A program made the translations under genes and the position numbers. The notes beneath the pieces were generated by a model. It was not told where the DNA came from, searched no databases, and saw only the letters and a list, made by a program, of their open reading frames with translations. From positions 14-64,013 of the IMG/VR virus record IMGVR_UViG_2842363717_000002: 64,000 bases of DNA; one strand, given 5' to 3'. Origin of the DNA: a virus. This document shows positions 5,945 through 62,416 of the stretch, piece by piece (the first letter of the stretch is position 1; each line of letters begins with the position of its first letter).

Positions 5945-6321
5945 GCTCGCACCTCCAGAGCGGTCCGAAAAGGATTGGCGTTAACGAGGATATCGCCAAA
6001 CTTGGCTACCACCGCAGCATGGTCTTCCGCATCCATGACAAACAGAAATGTGCCGCCAAGGAAGTTGCCGCGGTCATCGCGCGGGCCGTTCAGGAAGTTC
6101 TTCTGAACAAGACCATACCGAACGCCGACTCGCTCATCCTGCGTTTGTTGGCCGACGCAGTTTTCGCCGACATGAGTCCACTTGCGCTGCTTGAGGGCGG
6201 CCTCAATCTCAGCCAGATCGGGCACTCGCGAAAGCTCAACGGCGTGCCTATAGTCCCTGCTCATGTTCTCGCAGGCACTTACCTCGTCACGGCTCAATAT
6301 GCCGTCGTATACCAATCTCAT
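5941..6321 (-). CDS. phage hypothetical protein
   Basis: Start MRLVYDG follows the CCACCAC-GAGGAG motif. Confidence 0.65.
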   Translation of the reverse strand: MRLVYDGILSRDEVSACENMSRDYRHAVELSRVPDLAEIEAALKQRKWTHVGENCVGQQTQDERVGVRYGLVQKNFLNGPRDDRGNFLGGTFLFVMDAEDHAAVVAKFGDILVNANPFRTALEVRA

Positions 6322-6379
6322 TCTCTTCTCCTCTTCGTGGTGGTTGCCACCGACTTGGTGGGCCGGCGGCAGGTTGTGG

Positions 6380-6634
6380 TTAGGCTGCCGCTTTAAGGTA
6401 TGGTCTGGTAAAGTCACGCTCGACTGTCACGGTGGTAAATCCTCTTGCAATCAAAATCCCCTGGATGAAACCAAGCCATCTGTGCGCCTTGGTTTCATCC
6501 GAGAAAGTCTGCAACTCGCGCAACATCCACCGCAGGTGAGGAGGGCTTGTGCCTGGATCTGGCTGGCACTCGATATAGGCTGAGATGCGACGCAGCATTC
6601 CGTCGTATCGCGCGATAATGTCGTTGTGGATCAA
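6380..6634 (-). CDS. phage hypothetical protein
   Basis: Coupled ORF; KAHRWLGFIQG motif. Confidence 0.7.
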   Translation of the reverse strand: MIHNDIIARYDGMLRRISAYIECQPDPGTSPPHLRWMLRELQTFSDETKAHRWLGFIQGILIARGFTTVTVERDFTRPYLKAAA

Positions 6635-7884
6635 GCCACCCTCCTCTGCTCTGCCGGCGCGTTGTCGTTCGCAGCATCGAGCATGGCGACCCGCACGCGC
6701 GAGATCTCGCCATATGACCGGTGATAGGTGATCGTCTGCAACGAGCGGCCGGACAGGAAGCCTGACCCGAAATGCCAGGCATCTTGCGGGATCGGCGCCT
6801 GATGGGACTCCATGATCACGCCGCCGCCTTCGGTCGCGAATTTCGACTTGTGGTGGACGTGGAATCCGTGGGCATACCGGAACATCGACGCTCCCCAGTC
6901 CTCAGCCCTGCGGTGCGCCATGATTCCCGGCATGTCCTGCAGCTTCGCCTCGTGTCCGTGGGTGGCGGAAATCATCACCTTGCCGTAGCGGCGATGGAAG
7001 AACAAAGACTTGTCCAGATCGACGATAACGCGCGGCTCGTTGCGATACCAAGCGTGAAGGAACCAAGCGATTGCTGGAGCCGTCTCCTCGTCGTGGTTTC
7101 CTTTGAGATTGCGAACCTCCACTATGGCATTATTGCGAAGAGCCGCATCAATAGTCCGGACCAACAGGCGGCCGGCGGTCTCCGTGACCTTGGTGTGCCT
7201 GCCGTCGACGTCGAGAACGTTCTTGGATCTAGATGTCCGGTTCTCGTTGTTGTCGGCATGTGTCAGGTCGCCGCCGCCAAGCACGATTGCTACACCGCTA
7301 GCCGGGGAGCGCGCTATTGCTTCCTCGATACCACGACCGATAACGCGCTCCGCAATCTTCAGATCCCAATTCTCGTCGGTCTCTTGGCTCCATGCGAACA
7401 TCCCAACGTGCCAGTCATTGCAAGGTATGAGCGTGACTAGTTCGTCCTGAACGTTTTCGGGTGCTGGCGTTGGGATAGCGGCAGGCTCATAATCAGCGAA
7501 CGCAGCCTTGAGCGTTTCGGCAATGTCGATCGCCGACGGCTCAATCCGCGTCTTCACCCACTGCTGAATCGTCCGTCCATCGGCGTCGACCAACGCCGAA
7601 ACGCCCTTTATGGTGTGCCCGACAGGCATCTCCCATTCCGGCCCTCGCTCCGGCTTCTGCTGGATGAAATCGCCGTTCGGCGTGCTCGTCACCTGGCTGA
7701 TGCGGAACCCCGGCAGCACCGGCTTAGTGCCAAGCATGCCGCGCTCTGCGGCCGCTTTCAGCCTCGAGCAAAACGTGTTGCGCGGCAGGCGGAGCAATTC
7801 GGCCGCCTGCGACTTGTTGCCGAGCGCAATGAACGCGTCGGCGGCTTCCTTGGCGAGATCGTCTGGGAGTCTGGGCGTTGGCAT
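6631..7884 (-). CDS. N-terminal HTH plus calcineurin-like phosphoesterase
   Basis: NDWH, GGDLTHAD, GNHD, HGHE, HVHH; ends AANDNAPAEQRRVA. Confidence 0.75.
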   Translation of the reverse strand: MPTPRLPDDLAKEAADAFIALGNKSQAAELLRLPRNTFCSRLKAAAERGMLGTKPVLPGFRISQVTSTPNGDFIQQKPERGPEWEMPVGHTIKGVSALVDADGRTIQQWVKTRIEPSAIDIAETLKAAFADYEPAAIPTPAPENVQDELVTLIPCNDWHVGMFAWSQETDENWDLKIAERVIGRGIEEAIARSPASGVAIVLGGGDLTHADNNENRTSRSKNVLDVDGRHTKVTETAGRLLVRTIDAALRNNAIVEVRNLKGNHDEETAPAIAWFLHAWYRNEPRVIVDLDKSLFFHRRYGKVMISATHGHEAKLQDMPGIMAHRRAEDWGASMFRYAHGFHVHHKSKFATEGGGVIMESHQAPIPQDAWHFGSGFLSGRSLQTITYHRSYGEISRVRVAMLDAANDNAPAEQRRVA

Positions 7885-8004
7885 TAGGATTCCTTACGGT
7901 TGGACATGAAGAAGCTGGTGCGCTTGAATGCGGCCATGCCCATTTCGTTGATTGCTGCCGTTACGGCCTTTGCAAGGACGGCTCGCAGTGTTTCGTCGTC
8001 CATA

Positions 8005-8442
8005 TTAACCTCCAATTATCGCCTGCGGCTCAGCCCGCTTCGGCTCTTCCCGCCCGCCGGTGCCTTCTTCGGCAAATCCCGGGCTTCCGGTCTCGCCCTG
8101 CCGCATGCCGACAGATCCGCCGTTGCCTTCAGCGCCGTCCATGGCGTTCTGCAGGTTGTTGGCCGTGGCGGTGGTGTAAGGCAGCTTGTAGTAACGCGGC
8201 GCGCCGTTGCCGCCGTCGAGCAGCACATAGATCGCCTCGTTGACGTCGATGCGCGCGCCCAGCACGGTGTAGTGGCCAGCTGGCGGCGCGGTGATGGCCG
8301 GGTGGCCGAGTGGGAGGAGCGTGGCTGGCGCCAAGATGGCGGCGACGACCGTGAGGCACAGGGCCTGCCGCTTCGTGCCGAACCATGCGACGGCGCTGGC
8401 GGCCAGCACGAAGGCTAGCCATAGGGTGATGGCGGGGCTCAT
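8005..8442 (-). CDS. membrane-anchored protein of the MotA/TolQ-like module
   Basis: Two N-terminal TM segments then a soluble domain; ATGA-coupled to the upstream ORF. Confidence 0.65.
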   Translation of the reverse strand: MSPAITLWLAFVLAASAVAWFGTKRQALCLTVVAAILAPATLLPLGHPAITAPPAGHYTVLGARIDVNEAIYVLLDGGNGAPRYYKLPYTTATANNLQNAMDGAEGNGGSVGMRQGETGSPGFAEEGTGGREEPKRAEPQAIIGG

Positions 8443-8702
8443 GGGCGGCGCGCCTTGAACACAATGGTGCTTGTGTCGATGCCACATGCACGAAAAGCTT
8501 TCCGGTAAAGCCATCCGACAAAGATCAGGACTCCCACGATGAGGTTGAGCGGGCCGGCCAACGCCAAGAGCGAAAAGAAGCCGATGTCGCCGATATCAAC
8601 ATCAAGCGGCGAAGAGCCTCTCCTCCATAGAAATTCTACGGCCAGCATCGACCCCATAGCGCCACTAAAAATCCATGCAGTAACTGTAACGAATATTTCC
8701 AT
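8439..8702 (-). CDS. small 2-TM membrane protein
   Basis: Hydrophobic 87 aa ORF coupled to its neighbours. Confidence 0.65.
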   Translation of the reverse strand: MEIFVTVTAWIFSGAMGSMLAVEFLWRRGSSPLDVDIGDIGFFSLLALAGPLNLIVGVLIFVGWLYRKAFRACGIDTSTIVFKARRP

Positions 8703-9244: not shown

Positions 9245-9711
9245 TCGCTCGCATCCATTCGCAGCACATATGCCACCGTCCCCATCCAAGTCGCTGCCAC
9301 GGCGCCGACGAGCGTCGAGCAGAAAGCAACGCTAAGGCCGTCAATCAGAGACATTGACATCTTGAGGAGGCCGGCCGCGCTGGACATGTCGCCGGCAGAT
9401 AGCCCGCTAGCCAACACCAGGAAGCCAACCAGATTTCCTATAAGCCCGATCATTACGGCCCAGACCTTCGCGTGCGGCAGGACGCGGGTGTGGCCAGCGA
9501 AGACGGAGACCAAGACGGAAACCAGCAGAGCGCTGATGATGTAAGACAGCCCGCTGATGTCATGCGTAAACACGAACTGCGTGTAGCCCTGCACAGATGC
9601 CCAGACGACGAGAGCGGCCCAGCAGGTGTTGAGGATGATGAGGCGGGCGGTCATTGCTCGCCGTGTGGCGGCTTCGTATCCAAGCCTGTCATTGTAGCGG
9701 TCGACCATCAC
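9241..9711 (-). CDS. MotA/TolQ/ExbB proton-channel-like membrane protein
   Basis: IGLIGNLVGF and GLSVAFCSTLVG match the last two channel helices of this family. Confidence 0.65.
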   Translation of the reverse strand: MMVDRYNDRLGYEAATRRAMTARLIILNTCWAALVVWASVQGYTQFVFTHDISGLSYIISALLVSVLVSVFAGHTRVLPHAKVWAVMIGLIGNLVGFLVLASGLSAGDMSSAAGLLKMSMSLIDGLSVAFCSTLVGAVAATWMGTVAYVLRMDASE

Positions 9712-10412
9712 GAAGCCCTCCGCGCCAACAGATCACACACAACCGAAGCCGGAACCACGAAGCCGAAGCCCGTCATGGTTGGGGTGTAGCTGTCGCCGCC
9801 ATACCAGTTCTTGCCCTTCAGCGGAGCGAGCGTAACGCCTACATTAATGCCGACCACGCGACCATCGTTCGCAAACACGCCGCCACCGCTTTGCCCCATT
9901 ACCGTTGTCATGTCGGTGACAATGACGCGCTTCCACGGTCCTGTCTGGCGGCCAGTGCCGGCGACGCGGCCGAAGGATGCAATGAATTCCATGCCAAGGG
10001 GATTGCCGATCGCTTGCAACTGCTCGCCGAAGCGCGGCTCGCGGCAATCGAGCTCGCTCGAGCCGGAGACGTTGCCGTCGGTGTGGATCAGCGCGACATC
10101 ATAGTCCTTGTTGACCCAAAGCACCGCCGCGTCGTCTTCCGTGCCGGCGAGCGTCTTGATCTTGACTGTCTTCTGGTCGCCGACGACATGGGCCGCGGTG
10201 AGAATGTTGCCGCCGCCGATATGAACGCCGGAGCCGAGGCCGTCGGCGACGGAAATCTTGACGGCCGAATCTTCCGAGGTCGTCGGCACTGCCTGGACGA
10301 TGGTGTTGGTGATGGTGGTTTGGACGGTATTGGGAACGGCGATGGCAACGCCACCAACGATCACGATGGCAAACGCCAGAATGGCAATGCTCATGAATCT
10401 GTAAAATCTCAT
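9708..10412 (-). CDS. secreted trypsin-like serine protease
   Basis: Signal-like N-terminus; GSGVHIG, LTAAHVV, DVAL, GQSGGGVF; AGGAGG RBS. Confidence 0.85.
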   Translation of the reverse strand: MRFYRFMSIAILAFAIVIVGGVAIAVPNTVQTTITNTIVQAVPTTSEDSAVKISVADGLGSGVHIGGGNILTAAHVVGDQKTVKIKTLAGTEDDAAVLWVNKDYDVALIHTDGNVSGSSELDCREPRFGEQLQAIGNPLGMEFIASFGRVAGTGRQTGPWKRVIVTDMTTVMGQSGGGVFANDGRVVGINVGVTLAPLKGKNWYGGDSYTPTMTGFGFVVPASVVCDLLARRAS

Positions 10413-10501
10413 AAACGCCTCCTCTATGTGGTGAATGAGGAGCGGCTTGGTGGGCCGCGCAAACTGCTTTGGTGGGCAGTGTTTGCAGAGTGGGGTCAAT
10501 T

Positions 10502-10515
10502 TACAAATTTGTCAA
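10502..10515 (-). promoter_or_regulatory. phage promoter/operator TTGACAAATTTGTA (copy 1 of 8)
   Basis: Contains palindrome ACAAATTTGT fused to a TTGACA -35 box; heads the accessory operon. Confidence 0.7.
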
Positions 10516-10791: not shown

Positions 10792-10794
10792 AAC

Positions 10795-13642: not shown

Positions 13643-13957
13643 TTACGCGGCGATCCACTGGAACTTGTCGTTCGGCTCGGCGTAGACGTCGTAATCCGTG
13701 GCCGCCGGCACGAGAAAGCGCTTGCCGGTCGTTGCATCCGGCGTCGGACCTACCGACACCCACGAGTCCGCAGCGGCACGAATGCGAAACATCGCCTGGC
13801 CAGAGCCAGAGTTTTCGCCTGGTGCAGAATTGGTGGATGTGACTCCGGTGGCCGGCGCCTCGCTCCACGCGATCTTGCCGAGGATGGCCTGAGACTTGTC
13901 TCGAGCGAAAAGAGAGCCGGGATAACCGCAAACGACATGAAGGCCTGAGAAAGCCAT
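13643..13957 (-). CDS. phage hypothetical protein
   Basis: GGAGAC RBS with CCACCAC motif. Confidence 0.7.
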   Translation of the reverse strand: MAFSGLHVVCGYPGSLFARDKSQAILGKIAWSEAPATGVTSTNSAPGENSGSGQAMFRIRAAADSWVSVGPTPDATTGKRFLVPAATDYDVYAEPNDKFQWIAA

Positions 13958-14009
13958 GGTAGTCTCCTGAAATGTGGTGGTGTTGGTCGGCCATGGTGCG
14001 GCCAGTGGA

Positions 14010-26432: not shown

Positions 26433-26556
26433 CGCGAGTATCCCTCTCACTATCCAATGTAGGCGCTTGGCAGGCGGTTGGATGACCGCTTTTCGGGAGC
26501 TACCCTAGCCAAGCAACTGGTATATAGTCGGCTGACCGCCTATAATCAACTCTGAG

Positions 26557-31875: not shown

Positions 31876-31951
31876 GCAAGTCTCCAAATGTGGTGTGGGT
31901 TGGTGCTATTGGCAGGACGTCTGTCCGGCCCTCCGGCTGGCGACCGGGTGA

Positions 31952-39110: not shown

Positions 39111-39164
39111 AGTCGTCTCCCGCATGTGGTGGTAACTACAATATGGGGCCAACCTACAAAAATA

Positions 39165-39416: not shown

Positions 39417-39468
39417 GACTGTCTCCTCTTCGTGGTGATGGTTGCGATGGTGCTAATTTAACAAACTC

Positions 39469-42929: not shown

Positions 42930-43492
42930 TAGGCGCTCCTTATGGCTGAAGAAATATAGTCGATTGCGTCAGTTGGCAGGATGGAGAACCATTCCCCGTT
43001 CAGTCGCCTGGATGCAAAATGCTCGTGCGCTTGCCGTTCGACTGATATTGCTGCGTTGGTTTGGATGGCCGCGTCCAAAGTCAGCTTATGCGGGCTCGAC
43101 GTCGATAATTGAGCAAGACGCTTTTGCGGAGAATTCGCTATCCCGATCTTGCATAGCGGGCTGGACGAATCCAAACACGAAATGACGTAGACGTATCGCA
43201 AAGACAACCGGATCGGCTTCAAAGTGGAAATGTGAGCAATTCTATCCCATGCCCACCTCGCTATCCGCTTGCCGCTGCTGGTGTGGATTTCAGAACGATC
43301 TAAAGCGCCTAATTCGCCAAGCAGATAAGATATCGCGCACCGGCCCTCCTCGCTGTCGTTCAGTACCAGTTGAAGCGTCTGTCCTCCGTCGACTGCCCGA
43401 ATCGTCAAGGCGCCATCACTTTCGGACGCTCCAGTGATGCATGCCTGCAAGACAGGCTCGCTGGGTTTCTTTGTGGGCATTTTTCTCCTCAA
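42929..43492 (-). CDS. GIY-YIG (T5orf172-like) domain protein
   Basis: YVYVI..CKIGIANSPQKRLAQL..SSP..ERQAH..RLNGEWF. Confidence 0.8.
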   Translation of the reverse strand: MRRKMPTKKPSEPVLQACITGASESDGALTIRAVDGGQTLQLVLNDSEEGRCAISYLLGELGALDRSEIHTSSGKRIARWAWDRIAHISTLKPIRLSLRYVYVISCLDSSSPLCKIGIANSPQKRLAQLSTSSPHKLTLDAAIQTNAAISVERQAHEHFASRRLNGEWFSILPTDAIDYISSAIRSA

Positions 43493-43582
43493 TGTGGTTC
43501 GTGGCCTTGCGCTGGTGAAGCGCCCCGCCTATCTTCGGAATTGCAGATGCCGAATCGATAGCCGCCCAGGAGGCGGAGAACT

Positions 43583-46492: not shown

Positions 46493-46586
46493 CTTGTCTC
46501 CTCAGACTGTGGTGGATCATCCCGCGCGTTGGTGGCGCGCGGAGTGGTGTATGTTATGGTAGCTTGCACTCAACGAAAGGCTGGCG

Positions 46587-48501: not shown

Positions 48502-48551
48502 TGGCGTCTCCTCACGTGGTGTAATTTGGTAGCTTCACCGTGGCGTCAATT

Positions 48552-48565
48552 TACAAATTTGTCAA
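48552..48565 (-). promoter_or_regulatory. TTGACAAATTTGTA motif (copy 6)
   Basis: 22 bp identical to copy 1 (ATTGACAAATTTGTAAATTGAC). Confidence 0.7.
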
Positions 48566-51672: not shown

Positions 51673-51715
51673 GGTTGTCTCCTCTTGTGGTGGTGATTGG
51701 CTGGTGAGGCCCGTA

Positions 51716-53462: not shown

Positions 53463-54517
53463 ATCCTGACCGGCATAAGGACGGCCAACAGCCCCTCAGC
53501 CTTATCAGACGTGAAGACCGCCGGCGAGCCGCTATCAGCCAGCGCCAACCTGATATCGCCAGCCGGGAAGATGCCAACGAGTTCGGTGAGGTACGCCGCA
53601 TTGAATCCGATATCGATCTTGTCTCCGTTATACGAGACGACGATTTCGTCAGATGCGCTGCCGCGCTCTGGGTTGCTGACATCCAACTTCCCTACGCCAT
53701 CCGCTAAGGACAGGCGTACGGCTTTGCCGCGCTCGGAAGACACGGCAGCAACTCGGCCAGCAGCCTGGCGCATGTCATCGCTGCCAAACGTCACGATCTT
53801 GTCGTTGGCGGTCGGAATGACGCGCTGATAGTCCGGGAACGTGCCGTCGATCAGTTTCGATGTGAGGATGAAGTCGCCGGCCGAGATGCGGATCTTGGAT
53901 TCGGAGACCGATACAGACACAACGCCCTTGGGAAGCAGGCCAACCGCCTTGCGGGGCACGATGACGCCGGTAAAGGCTGGAACGGCAGGGCCGGTGTGGC
54001 GAGATAGGCGGTGGCCGTCAGTCGACACGGCGACAACGGCGCCGTCATGAACGTGTAGGAACACGCCATTGAGGTAATAGCGCGTCTCTTCCGTGGACAT
54101 CGCAAACGCAACCGGCGCAAACAGCGAGGCGAGGTCGATCTCGAATGATGCATCATATGCTTTATCGCCGAACGTGGGAAAGTCCGCCGCATCGAGTGTG
54201 GACAGCTTAAACACGCTACGCCCTGATTTTATCTGGAGGCGATCACCCTCAAGGCTGATGGAAATATCGCCACCGGCCTTCTTGGCGATATCGGCGAGCA
54301 ACTTGGCGTCGACACAGACCGTGCCCGGCGTGGTAACGTCGGCCGGCGCAACATCGGTGGCGACGATATCAAGGTCGGTGCCGGTGACGTGCAGGCGGCC
54401 CTCTGCGGCGGAAAGCAGTACGTTGCCAAGGATGGGGATGGTGTTGCGGCTTTCGACGACGCGGCCGACGTTGGTCAGCACGCGCGCGAGGTCGGCCCGC
54501 TGGATGGTGAGTTTCAT
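53459..54517 (-). CDS. dnaN: DNA polymerase III beta sliding clamp homolog
   Basis: RNTIPILGNVL, TGTDL, ETRYYLNGV, STDGHRL, SKLIDGTFPDY, IGFNA.YL, VLMPVRI. Confidence 0.92.
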   Translation of the reverse strand: MKLTIQRADLARVLTNVGRVVESRNTIPILGNVLLSAAEGRLHVTGTDLDIVATDVAPADVTTPGTVCVDAKLLADIAKKAGGDISISLEGDRLQIKSGRSVFKLSTLDAADFPTFGDKAYDASFEIDLASLFAPVAFAMSTEETRYYLNGVFLHVHDGAVVAVSTDGHRLSRHTGPAVPAFTGVIVPRKAVGLLPKGVVSVSVSESKIRISAGDFILTSKLIDGTFPDYQRVIPTANDKIVTFGSDDMRQAAGRVAAVSSERGKAVRLSLADGVGKLDVSNPERGSASDEIVVSYNGDKIDIGFNAAYLTELVGIFPAGDIRLALADSGSPAVFTSDKAEGLLAVLMPVRI

Positions 54518-54575
54518 GGTGGTCTCCTCTTGGTGGTGGTGTGCCGCACGGTTGGTTGCCGTGCGGCGGTGGTGG

Positions 54576-54980
54576 TTAGGCTACAAAGCCTGCCGGCGTG
54601 ATGTACTCGCCGTTGCGCATTTCATGAAAACTCCACGTCTTGCCAGGATGAGCAGCGACCCAGTCTGATACTGCCTGCTCAATGGCATTTCCCAGAGACC
54701 GGTGCGGCTTATCGTATTCTGCCCAGGGATCGTCTGGACCGTCCTCGCCAAAGCATTCTTCGTTGCGTTCGGTGAGATCTTCCATGATGCGCTCGGCGTA
54801 TGCTTCACCGTCAACGTAGGCGGACATCACAGTCTTGTCGGCTTCGACGATGTAGAATGGCGCTCGGTCGTAATCGCCTGTGCCGACATGAATAGCCTCT
54901 TCTCTGCTATCGTATGGCCCGCTGAATATCTCCGCATCTTCGGAGTCCGACACCCACCATTTGAAATTCTTGTCGCTCAT
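54576..54980 (-). CDS. phage hypothetical protein
   Basis: GAGGAG RBS with CCACCAC. Confidence 0.7.
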   Translation of the reverse strand: MSDKNFKWWVSDSEDAEIFSGPYDSREEAIHVGTGDYDRAPFYIVEADKTVMSAYVDGEAYAERIMEDLTERNEECFGEDGPDDPWAEYDKPHRSLGNAIEQAVSDWVAAHPGKTWSFHEMRNGEYITPAGFVA

Positions 54981-55039
54981 TGTCTCTCCTCTAGTGGTGG
55001 AATGGCGGGCCGCTGGTGACGACCCGCCTTGTTATGCTG

Positions 55040-55666
55040 TTACTTCCGAGCGCCCCAAGGTTTCGACCCAGCCGGCTTTGCTGCCGCTGCGGCCGACGAT
55101 GCCTGGCGATTGTCATTTGCCGCGGGTGCGCGGTTGTCGTTGGCAGCAGCTGGCTCGTTGCGCTTCTTGCCCTGCGTGCCGTCGCCGATCACGCCGAGTT
55201 CCGGAACGGGCTCCTTGGCGCCTTCATGGGTGAAGAAGAACCGCTCAATCTGGTTCTTGTCCTTGTAGAAGGTGCCGTCCGGCTTTTTGTTGCCGATCTG
55301 GATGCCGATCTCGGCCGTGAACGACTTGAACAGCAGGTCATCCGTGTCGGTGTCGGCAGTGATTTCCTCGCCGACCGCATAGCCAAATCTGTCGAACATG
55401 GGCTTACCGTACTTGTAGGCACCGTGCTGGAAGCCGTCGGAGTGGACGATCGTCCAATAGGCCCAGAACTTGCGCTTGGCGAATTCGACGGGCTCGATCA
55501 CCTCGAAAGTGATTTCAGCCTGCCAGCCCTTCTTGTCCTGCGTTTCGGTGAGGTTGATCGCCTCGGCCTGGAGCTGCGCATACATGTGCGGCAGGATGCC
55601 ACCGCCGCCGCCCTGCTTCTCGGTGTTCTCGTAATCTGCTGCGTAGTTGTTGCCAATCTTGGCCAT
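55040..55666 (-). CDS. putative single-stranded DNA-binding protein (DUF669-like)
   Basis: Follows Sak4; OB-like core with tail ending KPWG; two ANDN copies. Confidence 0.65.
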   Translation of the reverse strand: MAKIGNNYAADYENTEKQGGGGGILPHMYAQLQAEAINLTETQDKKGWQAEITFEVIEPVEFAKRKFWAYWTIVHSDGFQHGAYKYGKPMFDRFGYAVGEEITADTDTDDLLFKSFTAEIGIQIGNKKPDGTFYKDKNQIERFFFTHEGAKEPVPELGVIGDGTQGKKRNEPAAANDNRAPAANDNRQASSAAAAAKPAGSKPWGARK

Positions 55667-55830
55667 GCTAGTCTCCTTCTGTGGTGGTTAGTTGGTGGCG
55701 GCGTAGTAGCGCCAAGGCGTGGTTGCCTTTGGCGTTACCGATCGTTCGCGGATGACGGTCTGCAGCCAGACCGTGCCGCTGTTGCGTGTTGTGACGGGGA
55801 ACCACGCGAACCAGCGTTCAGAGTGGAACA

Positions 55831-56736: not shown

Positions 56737-57012
56737 TCATTGCCCATGTGTGTCGATCGCCTCGATGAGTTTGTTCGTGCCCCACACGCAAAGGGAGACG
56801 AATGCGATGCCAATAGCGGAAAGCGCGACAACTGGCGCGAAGACGCCAACGCCTACCGCAACGGCCGCTACTACGCCGGCGATAGCGGCCCGACGAAGCG
56901 TTGGCGCCTTGAAGACCGTTGGCTTTCCGGGCTTGCTGACGGGCGCGTCGATCGGCACGTAGTCCAGCGGCGTGCGGGTGAGCGGCGGGTCGTTCCAGGG
57001 TGATCTGGGCAT
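56737..57012 (-). CDS. small 2-TM protein
   Basis: Hydrophobic C-terminal half; coupled. Confidence 0.55.
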   Translation of the reverse strand: MPRSPWNDPPLTRTPLDYVPIDAPVSKPGKPTVFKAPTLRRAAIAGVVAAVAVGVGVFAPVVALSAIGIAFVSLCVWGTNKLIEAIDTHGQ

Positions 57013-57200
57013 CAGAACACACCGAGCCAGACGCCGAAGCCGTGGACGACTCCAACCGGTGCGACGACACAACCGAAGGCGAGCAGCACCCATGCGCTTG
57101 CCTTGATGCAGACAATGACGTGCGTGATCCAAGCCGCCATTGCGGCGAGTAAGGCACCGGCGGCGAGAAAGAATGCCAAAATTCCAGCTGCTATTTTCAT
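57012..57200 (-). CDS. small hydrophobic membrane protein
   Basis: GAGGAGAC RBS; 2 TM segments. Confidence 0.65.
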   Translation of the reverse strand: MKIAAGILAFFLAAGALLAAMAAWITHVIVCIKASAWVLLAFGCVVAPVGVVHGFGVWLGVF

Positions 57201-57264
57201 AAAGTCTCCTCTTGCCGTGCGGTTGGTCGCCGCACGGCTTGCTGTGGTGGTGGCGTTGGTGGTG

Positions 57265-58416
57265 TTAGGCGGCGGCGCCGTACGGATATTCGACGAAGTG
57301 CTCGACGACATCCTTCGACTGCTTGAGCGGCATGCCAGTTACGGCACGCAGTTCCTTGATGGCATCGATTTTCTTGCCCTTGGCGGCAAGTCGCTGCCAT
57401 TCGTGCTTGTAGGTCGGCGCCGCTTCCTGGCTGGTGGTGGTCAGGACATAGACGCCGAACTGCTGGCCCTTATGCTTACCGGCGAGGCGGCTGGCCTCTG
57501 CTTTGGCGGCCGATTCGGTGGCGTGCACAAACGGCCGGCTGGATGGCTTCGGCTGGCCGTCTTCGATGAGGGCGACGATGGCGGTGGGAGTCGGTGCGGC
57601 CGGCGCGGGAACGGCTTCCGAATGGTAGAAATAAAGCAGCCCAACAGGCGATTTCAATTCGAACCCATCGTCATCTGATTTTTCGACGCGATGGACCCCG
57701 CCGACCGGTAATTCATCTTCGTAATCGGTGTGAATGATTTTTACCCAGTCACCAGCCCTGAACTTGGCCGGCGCCGCGTTGTCGTTGCTTGCCGTGGTGG
57801 TTGGCTCGTCGATCCATTCGGCGACGATGTCGTTCGCAAGTTCCGTCGTTGTGTCATCCCGCGTGGACTGACGGCCTGTGTCTGTCCACACCGCAGACGA
57901 CCAATTTCCTTTCTCGCCGAACGTAGTAGTTGACCCAGTCACGAACGCCGGCCCGACCTTGCGGCCGTCGCGCGTCTTGTAGAACTTGCCGGCCTCGAGT
58001 GCGAAGACGGGAAGCGGTTCGAAGCAGTCGATCGTGGCGCGCGTAAGGTTGCGCGGCGAGGCCATCGTTTCGTAATTGACCGGCGGATCGATATTTAGGA
58101 GGTACTCGCCGTTGTCGACCAACTTCCCGGACCAGGAGCTGATTGTGGCCGTCTTGCCGATCGCGCCGGTGGTGGATCTTGCGTCTTTGACGAGCCGTAC
58201 GCGATCGCCGACCTTCGGCTGCCACGGCTGCCACGGCTGCTCGACGAGCTCGAATCGGTAGGCGCTCATGCCACCTTGGCTGCCGTAATCCATATCAACC
58301 GTGATGAACTCGCCATCGTACTGCCTCACGACATACTCATTGCCGGCAGTAACGCATTTGGTGTTGTCGTCGTTAACGCACTTAACCCGATCCCCAACCT
58401 TAAACTTTCCCATCAT
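57265..58416 (-). CDS. modular protein with SH3-like repeats and C-terminal ribosomal L7/L12-CTD-like domain
   Basis: KFKVGDRV x3-like repeats; GKKIDAIKELRAVTGMPLKQSKDVVE. Confidence 0.65.
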   Translation of the reverse strand: MMGKFKVGDRVKCVNDDNTKCVTAGNEYVVRQYDGEFITVDMDYGSQGGMSAYRFELVEQPWQPWQPKVGDRVRLVKDARSTTGAIGKTATISSWSGKLVDNGEYLLNIDPPVNYETMASPRNLTRATIDCFEPLPVFALEAGKFYKTRDGRKVGPAFVTGSTTTFGEKGNWSSAVWTDTGRQSTRDDTTTELANDIVAEWIDEPTTTASNDNAAPAKFRAGDWVKIIHTDYEDELPVGGVHRVEKSDDDGFELKSPVGLLYFYHSEAVPAPAAPTPTAIVALIEDGQPKPSSRPFVHATESAAKAEASRLAGKHKGQQFGVYVLTTTSQEAAPTYKHEWQRLAAKGKKIDAIKELRAVTGMPLKQSKDVVEHFVEYPYGAAA

Positions 58417-58703
58417 GCTGCTCCTCTCGTGGTGGTGGTTTTGCGGAGCTTGCGCTCCTTGGTGAAGTCGATGACGTTGTCGTCTTCGGCGCCCGAAATG
58501 GCTGCGGCGTCCGGCGGGGGGATTTCGTCGTCATCGACCGCCTGCAGTTCCCATTCGTGGAACTGCAGAACATCCAGCGTCGGGCTGACGCGAATAATAA
58601 CGATGCTCCCCATGAACCCGATGACGATACCGAAAACGTTGGTGTTCATCCTGTGCTCGACGACGTCGCCGATCTCAATGCAGTCGCAATCAGGGCAACT
58701 CAT
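58413..58703 (-). CDS. phage hypothetical protein
   Basis: Coupled ORF. Confidence 0.65.
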   Translation of the reverse strand: MSCPDCDCIEIGDVVEHRMNTNVFGIVIGFMGSIVIIRVSPTLDVLQFHEWELQAVDDDEIPPPDAAAISGAEDDNVIDFTKERKLRKTTTTRGAA

Positions 58704-59050
58704 GCCGCCACCTGCAGATCTGCCAGGCCGGCGATCAGAAGCTCGCGCTCGGACGGCGCGACTTCGGCGATGTCGAGCGTTGGAATGCGCTGCACCGATA
58801 CTGGCATGATGCCGCTCGTCGTCGAGCAGCCGCCGTTGGACGGCACCATCCTGGTGACGGCGCGCGGGTTGTTGTCGTTCGCCGCGGCGATCGGAGAGTT
58901 CTGGTAATGTCCGAGGCCGTACTCGCGCCGCAGGCGCTGGTAACAGGTCATCGGCTTGATGTTGTATCTGGCTGCTATGGCGGCAACGGTCTCGCCGTTA
59001 AGTCTGCGCGCATGCATATCGGCCAGCATAGCGCTGGTAATCATGGTCAT
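58700..59050 (-). CDS. HTH protein, first gene of the early leftward operon
   Basis: GETVAAIAARYNIKPMTCYQRL; AANDN. Confidence 0.65.
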   Translation of the reverse strand: MTMITSAMLADMHARRLNGETVAAIAARYNIKPMTCYQRLRREYGLGHYQNSPIAAANDNNPRAVTRMVPSNGGCSTTSGIMPVSVQRIPTLDIAEVAPSERELLIAGLADLQVAA

Positions 59051-59118
59051 GTCGTCTCCTCTGTGGTGGGATTGGCAGGCGGTGAACTTGCCAATTGATG
59101 GTCATAATGTTATCGATT

Positions 59119-59132
59119 TACAAATTTGTCAA
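59119..59132 (-). promoter_or_regulatory. TTGACAAATTTGTA motif (copy 7), main early promoter
   Basis: TTGACA-N17-CATTAT; between the early operon and the divergent repressor. Confidence 0.72.
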
Positions 59133-59147
59133 AGTATGGCGGCTATT

Positions 59148-59783
59148 ATGTCTTCACGCGGCACCCCCTCCAGAACGCGCTTCGCGCAGATGCTTGCGGC
59201 CGAGCAAATCAAGCGCGGCCAGACAGATCGCGAGGTGGCGGAAAACCATGGCTGGCTGCAGCAGACGTTCAGCCGGTGGAAGCTCGGAAGCCTGCCGCGG
59301 CAGCATATGTTCGCGTCGATCGCCAGCTTCCTGGAAACAGATGAGAACGCTGTGCGGGAGATGGTCGAGGAAGCGCAGGAAAGCGCCGCATCGACGAAGC
59401 TGCCAAACGTGGCCGCATTCAACGCTGCCCGGGTCTATGGTCGCGTGACCGACCGCAAGGACGGGAAGTATGTCTTTGACGCGTTCAACAAAGGCCGCAA
59501 GCGCATTCCTGACGGACGCTACGCCATCTTGATCGACACGAAAATCATGGAGCCGGCGCTGCCGGTCGGCACCAGGGCGTGGCTGGATCCGGCAATCTGG
59601 CCGTCGCCAGGCAATGAAGTGCTGGCCCACGCCAAGGGCGGAGCCGCGTGGATCGGCCGGCTCGTTGGTGTGTCCGGCACGTCCGCCGAGATCGAGCGCG
59701 GCGGATCGACGATGACGGTGCGTGATGTTGAAGGCGTGCATGTCATCGTCCTTTCCGAGCGCGTTGCGCGAATTAATGCTTGA
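59148..59783 (+). CDS. XRE/CI-like repressor with S24-like C-terminal domain
   Basis: QTDREVAENHGWLQQTFSRWKLG HTH; MEPAL..G..AWLDP. Confidence 0.75.
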   Translation: MSSRGTPSRTRFAQMLAAEQIKRGQTDREVAENHGWLQQTFSRWKLGSLPRQHMFASIASFLETDENAVREMVEEAQESAASTKLPNVAAFNAARVYGRVTDRKDGKYVFDAFNKGRKRIPDGRYAILIDTKIMEPALPVGTRAWLDPAIWPSPGNEVLAHAKGGAAWIGRLVGVSGTSAEIERGGSTMTVRDVEGVHVIVLSERVARINA

Positions 59784-59809
59784 CAAATTTGTAGAGTGTT
59801 TGGTAGACA
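59780..59809 (+). promoter_or_regulatory. TTGACAAATTTGTA motif (copy 8), promoter of predicted sRNA
   Basis: TTGACA-N18-TAGACA; overlaps the repressor stop codon. Confidence 0.65.
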
Positions 59810-59814
59810 CAATA

Positions 59815-59995
59815 CGCTGCTGTGGTGGCAGTAAGGAAATCCGGGTTCTGACGAGCGTCAGCTAGTCTCCTCCCCGAGATAGTACGAACCTTCATCCCTG
59901 AGCCGCTAAGCGGGTGGTGCCGGCCTTCGGGTCGGCTCAGAGGATGGGGTTAAGCAAAAAAGCGCCAGCCGGCGGTTAGCCAGCGGCGCTTTTCT
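59815..59995 (+). ncRNA. predicted phage sRNA with anti-RBS elements
   Basis: Promoter upstream, two multibranch domains, own terminator, no ORF. Confidence 0.6.
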
Positions 59996-59998
59996 TAT
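59954..59998. terminator. bidirectional intrinsic terminator
   Basis: AAAAGCGCC...GGCGCTTTT. Confidence 0.65.
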
Positions 59999-60163
59999 GT
60001 CGGCTTTTCATTGATGCTTCTCATGGCGTGATCCCCTCGAATTGGTGCTCCTATAAAAAGGAAAAGCCGCCTCGGTGGGCGGCTCATCTTCTTCTGGGCG
60101 GGTCGCGGCCTTTCGCCGCTACTCTTCTTCTGTCGTGGTCTTTCTTAAGTGGCCGCATTGTCG

Positions 60164-60430: not shown

Positions 60431-61174
60431 ATGACGAAATTAACTGAGAAACTTCATAAGCAATCCAAGGCCGTGGGCGTTACCCAGGCGACGATCGCTC
60501 GCGAGCTGAATATCACACAACAGGCGGTCAACAACCTATTCAACGGGCGCGCGGCGTCCTCGATGTATTGGCGCGAGATCGCCGGCATGCTGCAGATCCC
60601 CGAAGACGAGATGCGCGAGCTGATGATAGACGCCGGCCGCGACCCAGAGAAGAACACCAAGCTGCCGACCGCGCCGCCGCATCGAACCGTTGATGCGGCG
60701 GCCGCCTTTCCTGAGGATGAACCAGTGTTAGCTAATGCCAAAGTCATTGATTTAGTTCCGGTAACGAGGCCCGGCAAGATGATTCCAGTGCTCGGTGAGG
60801 TCGTCGGCGGCGACGATGGCGAATACATCTTCAACGGCCAGGTCCAGGATTATGTCGCCTGCCCGCCATCACTGGTGAACGTTCCGAACGCCTATAGTGT
60901 CTATGTCGATGGCGAGTCGATGGCGCCACGGTATCGGCCTGGCGAAGTAGTATATGTGCACCCCGGCCGCCCTCCTCGGCGCGGTGATGATGTCATCGTG
61001 CAAATCCACGGCAAGGACGACAGCCAGCCGCCGCGCGGCTTCATCAAGGAATTCGTGGGCTGGGCCGGTGAGAAGCTTGTGTTGCAACAATACAATCCTC
61101 AGAAGCGAATCGAATTCAGCCGACAAGCAGTTGTGAGCATTCACCCGATCGTTTTGTCCGGAAAATACATTTGA
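60431..61174 (+). CDS. cI: CI-like repressor (HTH plus S24 autopeptidase)
   Basis: VTQATIARELNITQQAVNNLFNG; VGG cleavage-type site; GESMAPRY; FIKEF. Confidence 0.9.
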   Translation: MTKLTEKLHKQSKAVGVTQATIARELNITQQAVNNLFNGRAASSMYWREIAGMLQIPEDEMRELMIDAGRDPEKNTKLPTAPPHRTVDAAAAFPEDEPVLANAKVIDLVPVTRPGKMIPVLGEVVGGDDGEYIFNGQVQDYVACPPSLVNVPNAYSVYVDGESMAPRYRPGEVVYVHPGRPPRRGDDVIVQIHGKDDSQPPRGFIKEFVGWAGEKLVLQQYNPQKRIEFSRQAVVSIHPIVLSGKYI

Positions 61175-61268
61175 GCCACAACCATAGTTGACTTGCTTAT
61201 AATAATCGCTTATACAACTCCTCACCGCCGCATTTTACCGGGCGGGCACCACGTTGAGGAGACTTGCG

Positions 61269-61472
61269 ATGTTGAACAGAAGAGTTCTTGAGACCGACGA
61301 CGACTATTCCCCGGCAGGCTGCGCCGCCGGTAGCGCGGAGCCGATCCGCAAAGCAGACCATCGTGCCAAGAAGCATCCCCGCCCCGCGCCGCGCAACTTA
61401 GTTTGCCGCGGCCGCCTTGCGTCGCGCCACCAGAAGCCTGGTCGCGTGTTCGCCGAGATGGAGGTGGAGTGA
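61269..61472 (+). CDS. phage hypothetical protein
   Basis: CACCAC-GAGGAGAC RBS. Confidence 0.55.
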   Translation: MLNRRVLETDDDYSPAGCAAGSAEPIRKADHRAKKHPRPAPRNLVCRGRLASRHQKPGRVFAEMEVE

Positions 61473-61591
61473 TGGACAACTCTGGCTTTTCCATTCGCGA
61501 TTTCATCAAAGACCTGATCGGCGCCCTTTCGGCCGTCTCGTTCGTCGCAGCCGTTTCGATCTGGCTGCCGTATGTCGTGCAGCACCACTAA
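61472..61591 (+). CDS. small membrane peptide
   Basis: Coupled to the previous ORF; hydrophobic. Confidence 0.5.
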   Translation: MDNSGFSIRDFIKDLIGALSAVSFVAAVSIWLPYVVQHH

Positions 61592-61625
61592 CCCACACCA
61601 CATCACGCTAGAGGAGACTGAAACA

Positions 61626-62309
61626 ATGAAATTCGACATTTTGAACAGATTCAGCGGAGAAGTGCAGGTCTCTGCCGAGATCGATTGCGACGCAAATGCC
61701 CTTCCGTCCGTGAAGCTTGGCCTCGCGGTCAAATGGGCGATCAAGGAAAAGGCCGACCTGTACGGCGCCGACCTGCGCAGCGCCGACCTGTACGGCGCCG
61801 ACCTGCGCAGCGCCGACCTGCGCAGCGCCGACCTGTACGGCGCCAACCTGCGCAGCGCCAACCTGTACGGCGCCGACCTGTACGGCGCCGACCTGCGCAG
61901 CGCCGACCTGTACGGCGCCGACCTGTACGGCGCCAACCTGCGCAGCGCCAACCTGTACGGCGCCGACCTGGGCGAGGCGAAAAACGCTGAGCTACCGATC
62001 GCGCAAACTCGCATCTTGCCGGAAGGCAGCATCATCGGATGGAAGAAGTGCCAGAAAGGCGTCATCGTCAAGTTGCGTATTCCCGAGGAAGCAAAACGGT
62101 CCCATGCATTCGGCCGCAAGTGCCGCGCTGAATTCGCCGATGTGATCGAAGTAATCGGCGGCAATGTCGGCATCAGCATGCACGATTACAGCACCGAGTA
62201 CCGCGCCGGCCAGCGCGTGCTGCCTGACAAATTTGACGAGAACTGGATGGAGGAATGCGCCGCAGGCATTCATTTCTTCATCACCCGCATAGAAGCCGAG
62301 AACTACTAA
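61626..62309 (+). CDS. pentapeptide-repeat protein with conserved C-terminal domain (DUF5758-like)
   Basis: 14 A[DN]L(YG/RS) repeats; GRKCRAE..CAAGIHFF. Confidence 0.88.
   Translation: MKFDILNRFSGEVQVSAEIDCDANALPSVKLGLAVKWAIKEKADLYGADLRSADLYGADLRSADLRSADLYGANLRSANLYGADLYGADLRSADLYGADLYGANLRSANLYGADLGEAKNAELPIAQTRILPEGSIIGWKKCQKGVIVKLRIPEEAKRSHAFGRKCRAEFADVIEVIGGNVGISMHDYSTEYRAGQRVLPDKFDENWMEECAAGIHFFITRIEAENY
61752..61970 (+). repeat. 15-bp tandem repeat array (14.6 units)
   Basis: GCC[GA]ACCTG followed by TACGGC or CGCAGC. Confidence 0.9.
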
Positions 62310-62416
62310 TTCAAATTGCCCGACGGGCAATGGGCGCGGTCGGTGATGATGGCTGCAACTTTCGTTTCCGTACCGCGCCCCAACCAATTCACCAACCACC
62401 ACAAAGGAGACCAAGC

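What the first reader, a model, noticed from the sequence alone, without database searches (positions are those of the whole stretch)
6301..62411. Extended ribosome-binding motif CCACCAC-N(1-8)-GAGGAGAC before about 19 phage genes
Seen on the coding strand before genes starting at 6321, 10412, 13957, 31875, 39110, 39416, 43492, 46492, 47960, 48501, 51672, 54517, 54980, 55666, 58416, 59050 (minus strand) and 61269, 61626, 62417 (plus strand). The best example is CCACCACAAGAGGAGAC at 51677-51693. It occurs mainly at genes that initiate independently, not at ATGA-coupled ones. The CCACCAC half is not explained by Shine-Dalgarno pairing. Inferred: a shared target for a translational regulator (RNA or protein) or a ribosome standby element.
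Basis: partly seen in the sequence, partly recalled or inferred. Interest (0 to 1): 0.65.

Follow-up and report, generated by a model that had tools for sequence, protein, structure and literature searches.

The report
Phage gene-start tag matching a small RNA
About twenty genes of this 16-3-like rhizobial phage begin with the same private ribosome-binding signature (CACCAC, then GAGGAGAC), and the phage's immunity region encodes a conserved small RNA whose exposed segments are the exact complement of both halves, so one RNA probably controls translation of most independently started phage genes, though no experiment has tested this.

Summary
CACCAC-N0-9-GGAG occurs 18 times in the window against 1.1 expected, and 17 of those sit about 20 nt before gene starts. 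It occurs almost only at genes with an intergenic gap (17/48 versus 1/42 coupled genes). It is phage-specific: 24% of SD-starts in the window, 0.2% in 1.48 Mb of Rhizobiales DNA. In three lysogen genomes it clusters inside the prophage, and the unrelated S. meliloti phage PBC5 lacks it. 16S rRNA explains neither CACCAC nor the "AC" after GGAG.

Following a lead from an earlier unchecked note, I examined a plus-strand RNA gene of about 180 nt at 59812-59996, between two repressor genes. It has 15 relatives, including one in phage 16-3. Of 28 base pairs, 18 covary. Its invariant unpaired blocks are UGUGGUG, GUCUCCU and UGGUG, the complements of both motif halves. A prophage that lacks this family carries a different candidate RNA with the same elements.

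Best reading (0.58): the motif is a private address tag for sRNA-mediated translational control. A sRNA-independent enhancer role remains possible, because unrelated high-GC phages also show CACCAC-SD. There are no expression data. The scan has noted similar motif-plus-sRNA arrangements on other DNA (unchecked AI notes).

The parts
6328..6342 (-). Motif copy (CACCAC-GAA-GAGGAG) before gene 5941-6321; upstream hairpin 6345-6371 with loop CCACCAA
10419..10433 (-). Motif copy before protease-like gene 9708-10412; two upstream hairpins (10442-10458, 10463-10480) with CCACCAA(A) loops
13964..13982 (-). Motif copy before gene 13643-13957; hairpin 13988-14004 with loop GCACCAT
31882..31895 (-). Motif copy before the major head protein gene 30601-31875
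39117..39131 (-). Motif copy before gene 38130-39110, downstream of a TTGACAAATTTG promoter box
39423..39437 (-). Motif copy before gene 39174-39416, downstream of a TTGACAAATTTG promoter box
43478..43505 (-). Degenerate copy (CCACGAACCACA-TT-GAGGAGAA-AA-ATG); probable true start is the ATG at 43480
46498..46514 (-). Exact motif copy before helicase gene 45083-46492; hairpin 46521-46543 with loop CCACCAA
47964..47977 (-). Motif copy before gene 47613-47960
48508..48521 (-). Motif copy before phosphoesterase gene 48001-48501 (GTG start)
51679..51695 (-). Exact motif copy before sigma-factor-like gene 51196-51672
54524..54541 (-). Exact motif copy before sliding-clamp-like gene 53459-54517; hairpin 54543-54567 with loop CAACCAA
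54986..54999 (-). Motif copy before gene 54576-54980; hairpin 55004-55028 with loop UCACCAG, conserved in nine relatives with a sense-strand G.U pair
55673..55686 (-). Motif copy before gene 55040-55666
57204..57253 (-). Variant copy before gene 57012-57200: CCACCACCAC (57244-57253), hairpin 57214-57238 with loop CGACCAA, then GAGGAGAC (57204-57211)
58421..58437 (-). Motif copy before gene 57265-58416
59056..59068 (-). Exact motif copy before the first early gene 58700-59050, in the 5' UTR of the promoter at 59132-59104
61247..61261 (+). Motif copy before gene 61269-61472; its SD can also pair with an upstream CUCCUCA
61596..61618 (+). Motif copy with a 9-nt spacer before gene 61626-62309
62397..62409 (+). 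Motif copy before gene 62417-62689
59780..59809 (+). Predicted promoter of the sRNA gene: TTGACA with the overlapping ACAAATTTGT palindrome, and a TAGACA -10-like hexamer; conserved in homologues including 16-3 and RHph_X2_25
59812..59996 (+). Candidate trans-acting sRNA (about 180 nt, no ORF, not in Rfam); family model R1 with 15 homologues
59821..59827 (+). sRNA element E1: UGUGGUG in the loop of hairpin 1 (stem 59816-59820 / 59828-59832, covarying); complement of CACCACA
59865..59872 (+). sRNA element E2: GUCUCCUC in an internal loop; exact complement of GAGGAGAC
59913..59919 (+). sRNA element E3: GGUGGUG inside helix 3 (local pairing uncertain); complement of CACCACC
59962..59996 (+). Intrinsic terminator of the sRNA (GC hairpin plus UUUUCUU)

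Best explanation
The CACCAC box together with the extended SD GAGGAGAC is a private, RNA-level address tag on the translation-initiation regions of about 20 independently initiated cistrons of a 16-3-like temperate rhizobiophage. Its partner is a phage sRNA of about 180 nt, encoded between the S24/XRE-type repressor gene and the C-type repressor gene. The sRNA presents three invariant, largely unpaired segments. GUCUCCUC pairs with GAGGAGAC and so covers the SD. UGUGGUG (a hairpin loop) and GGUGGUG pair with the CACCAC box, and possibly by loop-loop contact with the xxACCAx loops of the upstream mRNA hairpins. What is shown: the motif is enriched and lineage-specific; the sRNA gene is conserved and structured; and the two are complementary. 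What is inferred: two-site pairing occludes the ribosome-binding site and represses translation, perhaps with Hfq and RNase E. The CACCAC half would give specificity, so that host mRNAs, which share only GGAG, are spared. The location in the lysogeny module, and the absence of the tag from both repressor genes, suggest a role in immunity or in keeping lytic genes silent. Timing and direction of regulation are not established.
For: Enrichment and position of the motif.

Phage-specificity:
- CACCAC lies 5' of the SD at 17/70 SD-starts in the window, 12/54 and 27/88 in relatives, and 4/1734 in host DNA.
- GAGGAGAC occurs at 22.6% of GGAG-starts in the phages against 0.4% in host DNA.
- In lysogen genomes G001, G002 and G404, 12-14 of 20-25 matches fall inside one prophage, while four sRNA-negative genomes show only scattered hits near control level.
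- The unrelated S. meliloti phage PBC5 has 1 copy.

Sequence specificity: CACCAC is 22% of all CA-only hexamers 5' of the SD, and about 66% with its phase shifts.

16S rRNA: it has no GUCUCC or CUCCUC, and its only GUGGUG is internal.

sRNA gene:
- It has a promoter, a terminator and no ORF; fold z = -2.85.
- There are 15 homologues, including phage 16-3 (70 bits), RHph_X2_25 (80 bits, found where synteny predicted it), RHph_TM3_3_14B (unannotated there) and G404.
- 97.5% of cells are paired, 18/28 pairs change on both sides, 0/500 shuffles reach this, and slid controls give 36-53% paired.
- The invariant unpaired blocks across 13 aligned sequences are UGUGGUG, GUCUCCU and UGGUG.
- The triple signature arises in 2 of 1000 randomised genomes and is the only such non-antisense locus in the window.

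Second RNA: the G002 prophage lacks the R1 family but has, in its own immunity region, a promoter-to-terminator unit with GGUCUCCUC and two GUGGU(G) hairpin loops.

Energetics: structure-aware cofold gives a mean of -8.5 kcal/mol for motif TIRs, against -5.9 for other phage TIRs (p = 9e-4) and -5.5 for host TIRs (p = 5e-5).

Tag distribution: neither repressor gene (starts 59190 and 60431) carries the tag.
Against: The thermodynamic discrimination is modest, and several non-motif and host TIRs score as well as motif TIRs. The motif and the anti-motif are both invariant across the family, so sRNA-target co-variation cannot be tested. The second sRNA type is a single sequence with no relatives found. 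Element E3 may be partly paired within the sRNA; helix 4 is weakly supported. E1 lies 5' of E2, so simultaneous E1 and E2 pairing is not colinear. Dense CACCAC-SD sites also occur in unrelated high-GC viral contigs L031 and L061, where a crude search found no complementary RNA; the box may therefore have an sRNA-independent function. The sRNA promoter carries the same operator-like box as the lytic promoters, so the RNA might not be made in lysogens.
Confidence: 0.58

Rival explanations
1. The motif is an intrinsic, sRNA-independent translation-initiation cassette. A G-free, non-self-pairing (CCA)n tract just 5' of a strong SD keeps the site single-stranded in GC-rich mRNA and serves as a ribosome standby or S1 landing platform. 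The sRNA complementarity would then be secondary or irrelevant.
For: The motif is found at independently initiated genes only. It lies at -17 to -22, just 5' of the SD duplex, where mRNA leaves the 30S platform (established ribosome geometry). Dense CACCAC-SD sites occur in viral contigs that share no proteins with this phage, L031 and L061, and no complementary RNA was seen in L031. From my own knowledge, not checked here: CA-rich unstructured tracts can act as standby sites or translational enhancers in E. coli.
Against: The box is strongly sequence-specific, not just CA-rich. It is essentially absent from 1,734 host SD-starts and from phage PBC5 on the same host species. This reading does not explain the conserved AC after GGAG, which does not pair with 16S rRNA. 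It also does not explain why the most conserved unpaired blocks of a covarying sRNA are the complements of both halves.
Confidence: 0.25
2. The CACCAC box and the xxACCAx hairpin loops are binding sites for a phage- or host-encoded RNA-binding protein, acting as a translational repressor or activator in the manner of T4 RegA or Mu Com.
For: Loop sequences are conserved on variable stems, and ACCA loops are enriched upstream of motif sites: 21/64 against 16/171. Many early genes have no assigned function.
Against: No RNA-binding protein family was recognised among the motif-associated genes scanned against PHROGs, although not all 90 genes were scanned. A complementary sRNA already accounts for both halves.
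Confidence: 0.07
3. The repeats are DNA-level elements: either promoters for the phage sigma factor, or short linker homologies that mediate module exchange between mosaic phages.
For: The phage encodes a small sigma-70-family factor, gene 51196-51672. The cassettes sit at gene-block boundaries, and the lineage is described as mosaic (PMC10460002).
Against: The motif is strictly on the coding strand at a fixed distance from start codons. The distance between the ACCA loop and CACCAC varies from 0 to 14 nt, which does not fit -35/-10 geometry. CACCAC ends 1-5 nt from the SD, so a transcription start downstream of it would truncate the SD. Several copies lie inside 5' UTRs of sigma-70-like promoters. 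The orthologous hairpin keeps a sense-strand G.U pair.
Confidence: 0.05

Closest known systems
Start-associated sequences (SAS/ESAS) of Cluster K mycobacteriophages (Pope et al. 2011, PMC3203893)
   Same: Both are phage-lineage-specific asymmetric repeats that overlap the SD. Both occur in roughly 11-19 copies per genome, a few bases upstream of start codons, in one orientation, with positions conserved that cannot pair with 16S rRNA, and both are virtually absent from the host genome. In both, about half or a third of copies have an extra upstream inverted-repeat element.
   Different: The sequences differ (GGGATAGGAGCCC there). SAS are confined to the non-structural half of the genome, whereas this motif also precedes the capsid and protease genes. 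The authors judged ESAS inverted repeats unlikely to be RNA hairpins; here the hairpins have conserved loops and a sense-strand G.U pair. No partner is known for SAS, whereas here a complementary conserved sRNA is identified.
c4 antisense RNA of phages P1/P7 and CI RNA of P4 (RNA immunity factors; from my own knowledge)
   Same: A small phage RNA from the immunity region uses two short exposed segments to pair with bipartite target sites, one of which covers a ribosome-binding site, and so blocks expression of lytic functions.
   Different: c4 and CI act on one or two sites within their own operon and are processed from it. Here the RNA would act in trans on about 20 sites spread over the whole genome. 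There is no sequence or Rfam relationship.
Anti-SD sRNAs of Alphaproteobacteria with CCUCCUCCC loops (cuckoo/RcsR1 family; RcsR1 paper PMC4962803 seen, not read)
   Same: These are structured sRNAs that present C/U-rich anti-SD sequences for pairing with the SD regions of several mRNAs. The window sRNA contains CUCCUCCCC.
   Different: No Rfam RcsR1 match overlaps the sRNA; the only RcsR1 hit, at 12.4 bits against a 60-bit threshold, lies at 60060-60100 on the minus strand, outside the sRNA. The phage RNA adds two GUGGUG elements that match a phage-only box. The anti-SD extends to GUC, matching the phage-specific GAC.
Ribosome standby sites and CA-rich translational enhancers (from my own knowledge)
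   Same: An unstructured, G-poor tract immediately 5' of the SD at independently initiated cistrons.
   Different: This is a specific hexamer rather than a composition. It is absent from host genes and matched by a dedicated RNA.

Membership tests
Start-associated sequences (SAS) as defined for Cluster K mycobacteriophages | Asymmetric conserved repeat containing the SD core, within a few bases of start codons, in one orientation, many copies per genome | tested here: met
   18 relaxed copies, 17 of them before gene starts, all on the coding strand, with CACCAC at -17 to -22
Start-associated sequences (SAS) as defined for Cluster K mycobacteriophages | Conserved positions that cannot pair with the 16S rRNA 3' end | tested here: met
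   The 16S 3' end is GGAUCACCUCCUUUCU and contains no GUCUCC or CUCCUC. CACCAC lies beyond the reach of the 3' tail
Start-associated sequences (SAS) as defined for Cluster K mycobacteriophages | Virtually absent from the host genome and from unrelated phages of the same host | tested here: met
Start-associated sequences (SAS) as defined for Cluster K mycobacteriophages | Sequence homology to the 13-bp GGGATAGGAGCCC consensus, and Cluster K phage ancestry | tested here: not met
   The sequence and the host phylum are different. This is an analogue, not a member
P1/P7 c4-type antisense RNA (Rfam C4) | Match to the family covariance model | tested here: not met
   No Rfam hit at gathering threshold over the window. 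No C4 hit at E up to 10 on 59700-60100
P1/P7 c4-type antisense RNA (Rfam C4) | Two exposed short segments complementary to a bipartite target that includes an RBS | tested here: met
   E2 (GUCUCCUC) matches GAGGAGAC, and E1/E3 (GUGGUG) match CACCAC; E1 is in a loop and E2 in an internal loop of the consensus fold
P1/P7 c4-type antisense RNA (Rfam C4) | Demonstrated repression of target translation or transcription | not testable with these tools
   Needs reporter fusions or toeprinting
Extended Shine-Dalgarno (longer pairing with the 16S 3' end) | Conserved flanks complementary to the 16S rRNA 3' tail | tested here: not met
   GAGGAG can pair, with one G.U, but the AC and the CACCAC cannot. 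The host prefers GGAGG, not GGAGAC
Ribosome standby site / CA-rich enhancer | Unstructured tract next to the RBS whose effect depends on composition, not exact sequence | tested here: inconclusive
   The tract is G-free and upstream of the SD, but one hexamer family makes up about 66% of CA-only hexamers.
Bona fide structured sRNA gene | Promoter, terminator, no conserved ORF, and covariation-supported structure across homologues | tested here: met
Bona fide structured sRNA gene | Detected transcript | not testable with these tools

The most novel reading that the evidence does not exclude
Private RBS tags paired with a dedicated phage sRNA form a general, so far unrecognised layer of phage gene control. 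In 16-3-like phages the sRNA would be an RNA arm of immunity. It would silence every independently translated lytic cistron of the resident prophage, and of any superinfecting relative that carries the same tag, whatever its repressor specificity. The same logic would explain the unsolved SAS motifs of Cluster K mycobacteriophages; the SAS paper notes that four of these genomes (Anaya, Adephagia, Angelica, CrimD) each have one unexplained reverse-orientation copy.
Probability: 0.25. Interest if true: 0.88.

Novelty: new variant of a known kind. Interest (0 to 1): 0.74.

Why it matters
Phage 16-3 has been a genetic model for lysogeny in rhizobia since the 1960s. Neither this gene-start signature nor the RNA gene next to its repressor genes appears in the literature I could search, and the RNA gene is unannotated in the 16-3, RHph_TM3_3_14B and RHph_X2_25 records. 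If the pairing is functional, one small RNA would set the translation of most phage operons through a tag that host mRNAs lack. That would be a compact way to separate phage from host translation and to add a post-transcriptional layer to immunity. It would also give a concrete, testable partner for start-associated sequences, whose function has been open since 2011. Finally, it would provide an orthogonal RBS-plus-sRNA pair for synthetic control in rhizobia.

Tried and rejected
1. RNAduplex on the full-length sRNA against TIRs allowed giant loops and did not discriminate. I replaced it with element-wise duplexes and cofold ddG.
2. The G.U strand-asymmetry test on all upstream hairpins is confounded, because the sense strand is C/A-rich and the antisense strand G/T-rich. 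Only the orthologous 55004-55028 hairpin gave a clean conserved G.U pair, and it shows little covariation.
4. 16S rRNA was not found in draft genomes G001 and G002, so I used R. leguminosarum G004.
5. The covariance-model search of 151 family genomes scored only 21 candidates per genome and is insensitive. I replaced it with an exact pattern over 401 genomes.
6. Searches for relatives of the second sRNA type (G002) found none in the phage collection or in viral contigs.
7. An anti-motif RNA in the L031 provirus was not found with a crude pattern. The partial loci L061, L006, L064, L028, L051 and L100 showed only antisense images of cassettes.
8. The promoter reading and the extended-SD reading were rejected on spacing, strand and 16S grounds.
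9. Co-variation between the base 5' of GUCUCC in the sRNA and the base after GAGGAGAC in the targets showed only a weak, non-significant trend by eye, and I do not rely on it.

Full report
**What the window is.** The window is all but 231 bases of a 64,231-bp virus record. Its nearest published relatives are Rhizobium and Sinorhizobium phages. It shares 41 of my 90 called proteins with phage 16-3 and 28 with RHph_X2_25, counting tblastn hits to the first 50 kb of each record. Nearly all genes run on the minus strand from about 59 kb down to 2.3 kb. A short plus-strand arm from 59.2 kb onward holds an S24/XRE-type repressor gene (59190-59783), a C-type repressor gene (60431-61174) and further genes. 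Because the genome holds no host genes, host controls came from elsewhere.

**Checking the observation.**
- The strict pattern has 4 exact copies against none in shuffles.
- CCACCAC occurs 33 times against 6.6 expected.
- CACCAC-N0-9-GGAG occurs 18 times against 1.1 +/- 1.1 expected, and 17 of these copies precede called gene starts.
- Eighteen of the 19 listed starts carry a recognisable copy. Site 43492 is a degenerate copy whose real start is probably the ATG at 43480.
- A further variant precedes the gene starting at 57200.
- The box starts 17-22 nt before the start codon and ends 1-5 nt before the SD core.
- It marks genes with an upstream gap: 17 of 48, against 1 of 42 coupled genes, p = 5e-5.
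- The tagged genes are diverse. They include the major head protein, a protease, a helicase, a clamp-like protein, a sigma factor and a phosphoesterase.

Upstream of many boxes lies a GC-rich hairpin whose loop of about 7 nt reads CCACCAA, CAACCAA, UCACCAG or CGACCAA. Across 12 related phages, ACCA loops occur in 21 of 64 hairpins upstream of motif sites, against 16 of 171 at other starts. The hairpin before the 54980-type gene is conserved in nine relatives and keeps a G.U pair on the sense strand. The box is sequence-specific, not merely CA-rich. CACCAC is 22% of all CA-only hexamers 5' of the SD, and about 66% when its phase shifts are included.

**Phage versus host.**
- In 1.48 Mb of Rhizobiales chromosome (the dnaN neighbourhoods fetched), CACCAC lies 5' of the SD at 4 of 1,734 SD-start ORFs. 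The figure is 17 of 70 in the window and 22-31% in relatives.
- GAGGAGAC occurs at 0.4% of host GGAG-starts against 22.6% in the phages. The host prefers GGAGG.
- Within three lysogen genomes of 6.5-7.7 Mb, 12-14 of the 20-25 matches to CACCAC-N0-9-GGAGAC fall inside one prophage. Four other genomes show only scattered hits near the reversed-pattern control.
- Phage PBC5 infects S. meliloti, has similar GC and shares no proteins with the window. It has a single copy.
- A rhizobial 16S rRNA ends in GGAUCACCUCCUUUCU, lacks GUCUCC and CUCCUC, and has GUGGUG only at internal position 1182.

**A complementary small RNA.** An earlier unchecked note of this scan (e1-5323430) pointed to 59780-59998, and I tested it.
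- On the plus strand there is a TTGACAAATTTG promoter box at 59780, no ORF, and a strong intrinsic terminator at 59962-59996.
- The RNA of about 180 nt folds better than shuffles, z = -2.85.
- It contains UGUGGUG (59821-27), GUCUCCUC (59865-72, the exact complement of GAGGAGAC) and GGUGGUG (59913-19).
- On the minus strand these elements are in the wrong order and spacing to be a cassette, and no gene start follows them.
- This is the only locus in the window with an anti-SD and two GTGGTG that is not simply antisense to a gene start.
- The same triple signature arises in 2 of 1,000 randomised genomes.

**The RNA is a conserved, structured gene.**
- BLAST, pattern and covariance-model searches found 15 homologues: nine close ones, plus 16-3 (L206:36885-37023, 70 bits), L057, the Ensifer MPMI2T prophage, RHph_X2_25 and G404.
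- In RHph_X2_25 I predicted its position from synteny, just downstream of the XRE-type repressor gene, and found it there at 80 bits.
- It is unannotated in the 16-3, RHph_TM3_3_14B and RHph_X2_25 records, and it matches no Rfam family.
- On 13 sequences, 97.5% of cells are paired and 18 of 28 pairs change on both sides. No shuffle out of 500 reaches this, and slid controls give 36-53% paired. That alignment was fitted to the model, but the independent MAFFT/RNAalifold run on ten sequences already gave 12 compensated pairs.
- Helices 1-3 are solid. Helix 4, inside element E3, is weak.
- The invariant unpaired blocks across all 13 are UGUGGUG (the loop of hairpin 1), GUCUCCU and UGGUG, plus UA.GAA and UAGUA. 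In the diverged 16-3 and L057 copies these blocks persist while the sequence between them has drifted.

**Co-occurrence.** Every relative for which I held the immunity region has both the motif and an R1 RNA. The apparent exception is the prophage of Rhizobium sp. NFR07 (G002). It has at least 12 motif sites, a different immunity region and no R1 hit. In that region, however, it carries a different promoter-to-terminator unit (L211:10782-10935) with GGUCUCCUC and two GUGGU(G) hairpin loops, fold z = -2.9. This is a single sequence with no relatives found, so it remains a candidate. Even so, it turns a counter-example into an independent instance of the same design.

**Energetics.** Element-wise duplex energies average -29.0 kcal/mol for tagged TIRs, against -20.4 for other phage TIRs and -21.7 for host TIRs. 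This comparison is partly circular. Cofold ddG, which charges for opening both RNAs, gives -8.5 against -5.9 (p = 9e-4) and -5.5 (p = 5e-5). The separation is real but modest, and cofold cannot model two-site or kissing interactions.

**Mechanism.**
- Shown: a phage-lineage-private, coding-strand, start-proximal bipartite motif; a conserved structured sRNA gene in the lysogeny module; and complementarity between the RNA's invariant exposed blocks and both motif halves, including the phage-only GAC and CACCAC.
- Inferred: E2 covers the SD, while E3 (colinear with E2) and/or the E1 loop bind the CACCAC box or the ACCA hairpin loops. This would block 30S binding, and the CACCAC half would give selectivity over host mRNAs.
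- The two repressor genes lack the tag, which fits a role in immunity or silencing.
- The sRNA promoter bears the same operator-like box as the lytic promoters, so the timing of its expression is open.

**Rivals.**
- An intrinsic standby or enhancer role for the (CCA)n tract is the main rival and may coexist with the sRNA reading. Dense CACCAC-SD sites also occur in viral contigs L031 and L061, which share no proteins with this phage. A crude search of the L031 provirus found no matching RNA.
- Against this rival as the sole explanation stand the hexamer specificity, the absence from host genes and from PBC5, the AC extension, and the sRNA itself.
- A protein partner cannot be excluded.
- DNA-level readings (sigma-factor promoter, recombination linker) fit poorly with the strand, the spacing and the UTR location.

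**Comparison with known systems.**
- The closest published analogue of the motif is the SAS/ESAS system of Cluster K mycobacteriophages. It shares copy number, position, orientation, non-rRNA-pairing conserved positions and absence from the host, and its partner is unknown. The relation is analogy, not homology.
- The closest analogue of the proposed mechanism is the c4 RNA of P1/P7 and the CI RNA of P4 (from my own knowledge). These act on one or two sites within their own operon rather than on a genome-wide tag.
- The searchable papers on 16-3 and AP-16-3 mention neither the motif nor the RNA.
- Earlier AI notes of this scan describe similar 'private RBS motif plus complementary phage sRNA' pairs in other genomes. 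They are unchecked and I give them no weight, but they suggest the arrangement may recur.

**Verdict.** The regulator-target reading is supported by strong comparative evidence, but function is unproven. I class it as a new variant of a known kind.

Noticed in passing
window 10504-10515, 27939-27950, 39166-39177, 39471-39482, 48554-48565, 59121-59132 (minus strand); 36995-37006, 59780-59791 (plus strand): There are eight exact copies of TTGACAAATTTG, a -35 hexamer fused to the palindrome ACAAATTTGT. With one mismatch allowed there are 13 copies against 0.29 expected. The box heads lytic operons and also the sRNA gene, and it is conserved before the sRNA in 16-3, RHph_X2_25 and the Ensifer prophage. 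It is probably a repressor operator that overlaps the promoters.
   Followed up: partly
window 61225-61268 (plus strand); also L050, L075, L057: In the leader of gene 61269-61472 an upstream CUCCUCA can pair with UGAGGAG. This sequesters the SD and leaves the CACCAC box in the internal loop. The layout is conserved in three relatives and may be a cis riboregulatory switch on this one gene.
   Followed up: no
window 37555-37631 and 37636-37712 (minus strand): The phage encodes tRNA-Met(CAU) and tRNA-Pro(UGG). The tRNA-Pro reads CCA, the repeat unit of the box, but no link to the motif was shown.
   Followed up: no
window 26448-26515 (minus strand): Rfam int-alpA RNA match (44.9 bits, above the gathering score) between genes 25662-26432 and 26557-27006.
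   Followed up: no
window 40706-40779: Short GTATG/CATACA-type tandem repeats lie in the 127-nt gap upstream of gene 40112-40660, beside the primase-like gene. They look iteron-like and may mark an origin of replication.
   Followed up: no
L031 (IMG/VR provirus, 68 kb) and L061 (72% GC contig): These viral contigs share no proteins with the window, yet both have dense CACCAC-SD-ATG sites (13 in 13.8 kb and 8 in 8.3 kb). No complementary RNA was found in L031 with a crude pattern search.
   Followed up: partly
L211:10782-10935 (= G002:C30, about 128,781-128,935), plus strand: A second, non-homologous candidate sRNA lies in the immunity region of the Rhizobium sp. NFR07 prophage. It has GGUCUCCUC and two GUGGU(G) hairpin loops. 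No relatives were found.
   Followed up: partly
Literature: PMC3203893, section on SAS: Four Cluster K genomes (Anaya, Adephagia, Angelica, CrimD) are each reported to carry a single reverse-orientation SAS copy that is not tied to a gene start. It would be worth checking whether this copy lies in an antisense small RNA.
   Followed up: no
window leaders of the genes starting at 6321, 54517, 27006 and 57200: The upstream genes end in ...GCCTAA (Ala-stop), followed directly by a CA-rich tract (CCTAACCACAACC, CCTAACCACCACC, CCTAACACACAC, CCTAACACCACC).
   Followed up: no
L064, about 4265 and 6774 (minus-strand read): There are two copies of a box of about 45 nt (GTAGTTTACTCCTACCCCTCCCCCCTG..AAGCCCTAATGAG) next to GTGGTG-rich antisense images of gene starts, in an unrelated viral contig.
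   Followed up: no
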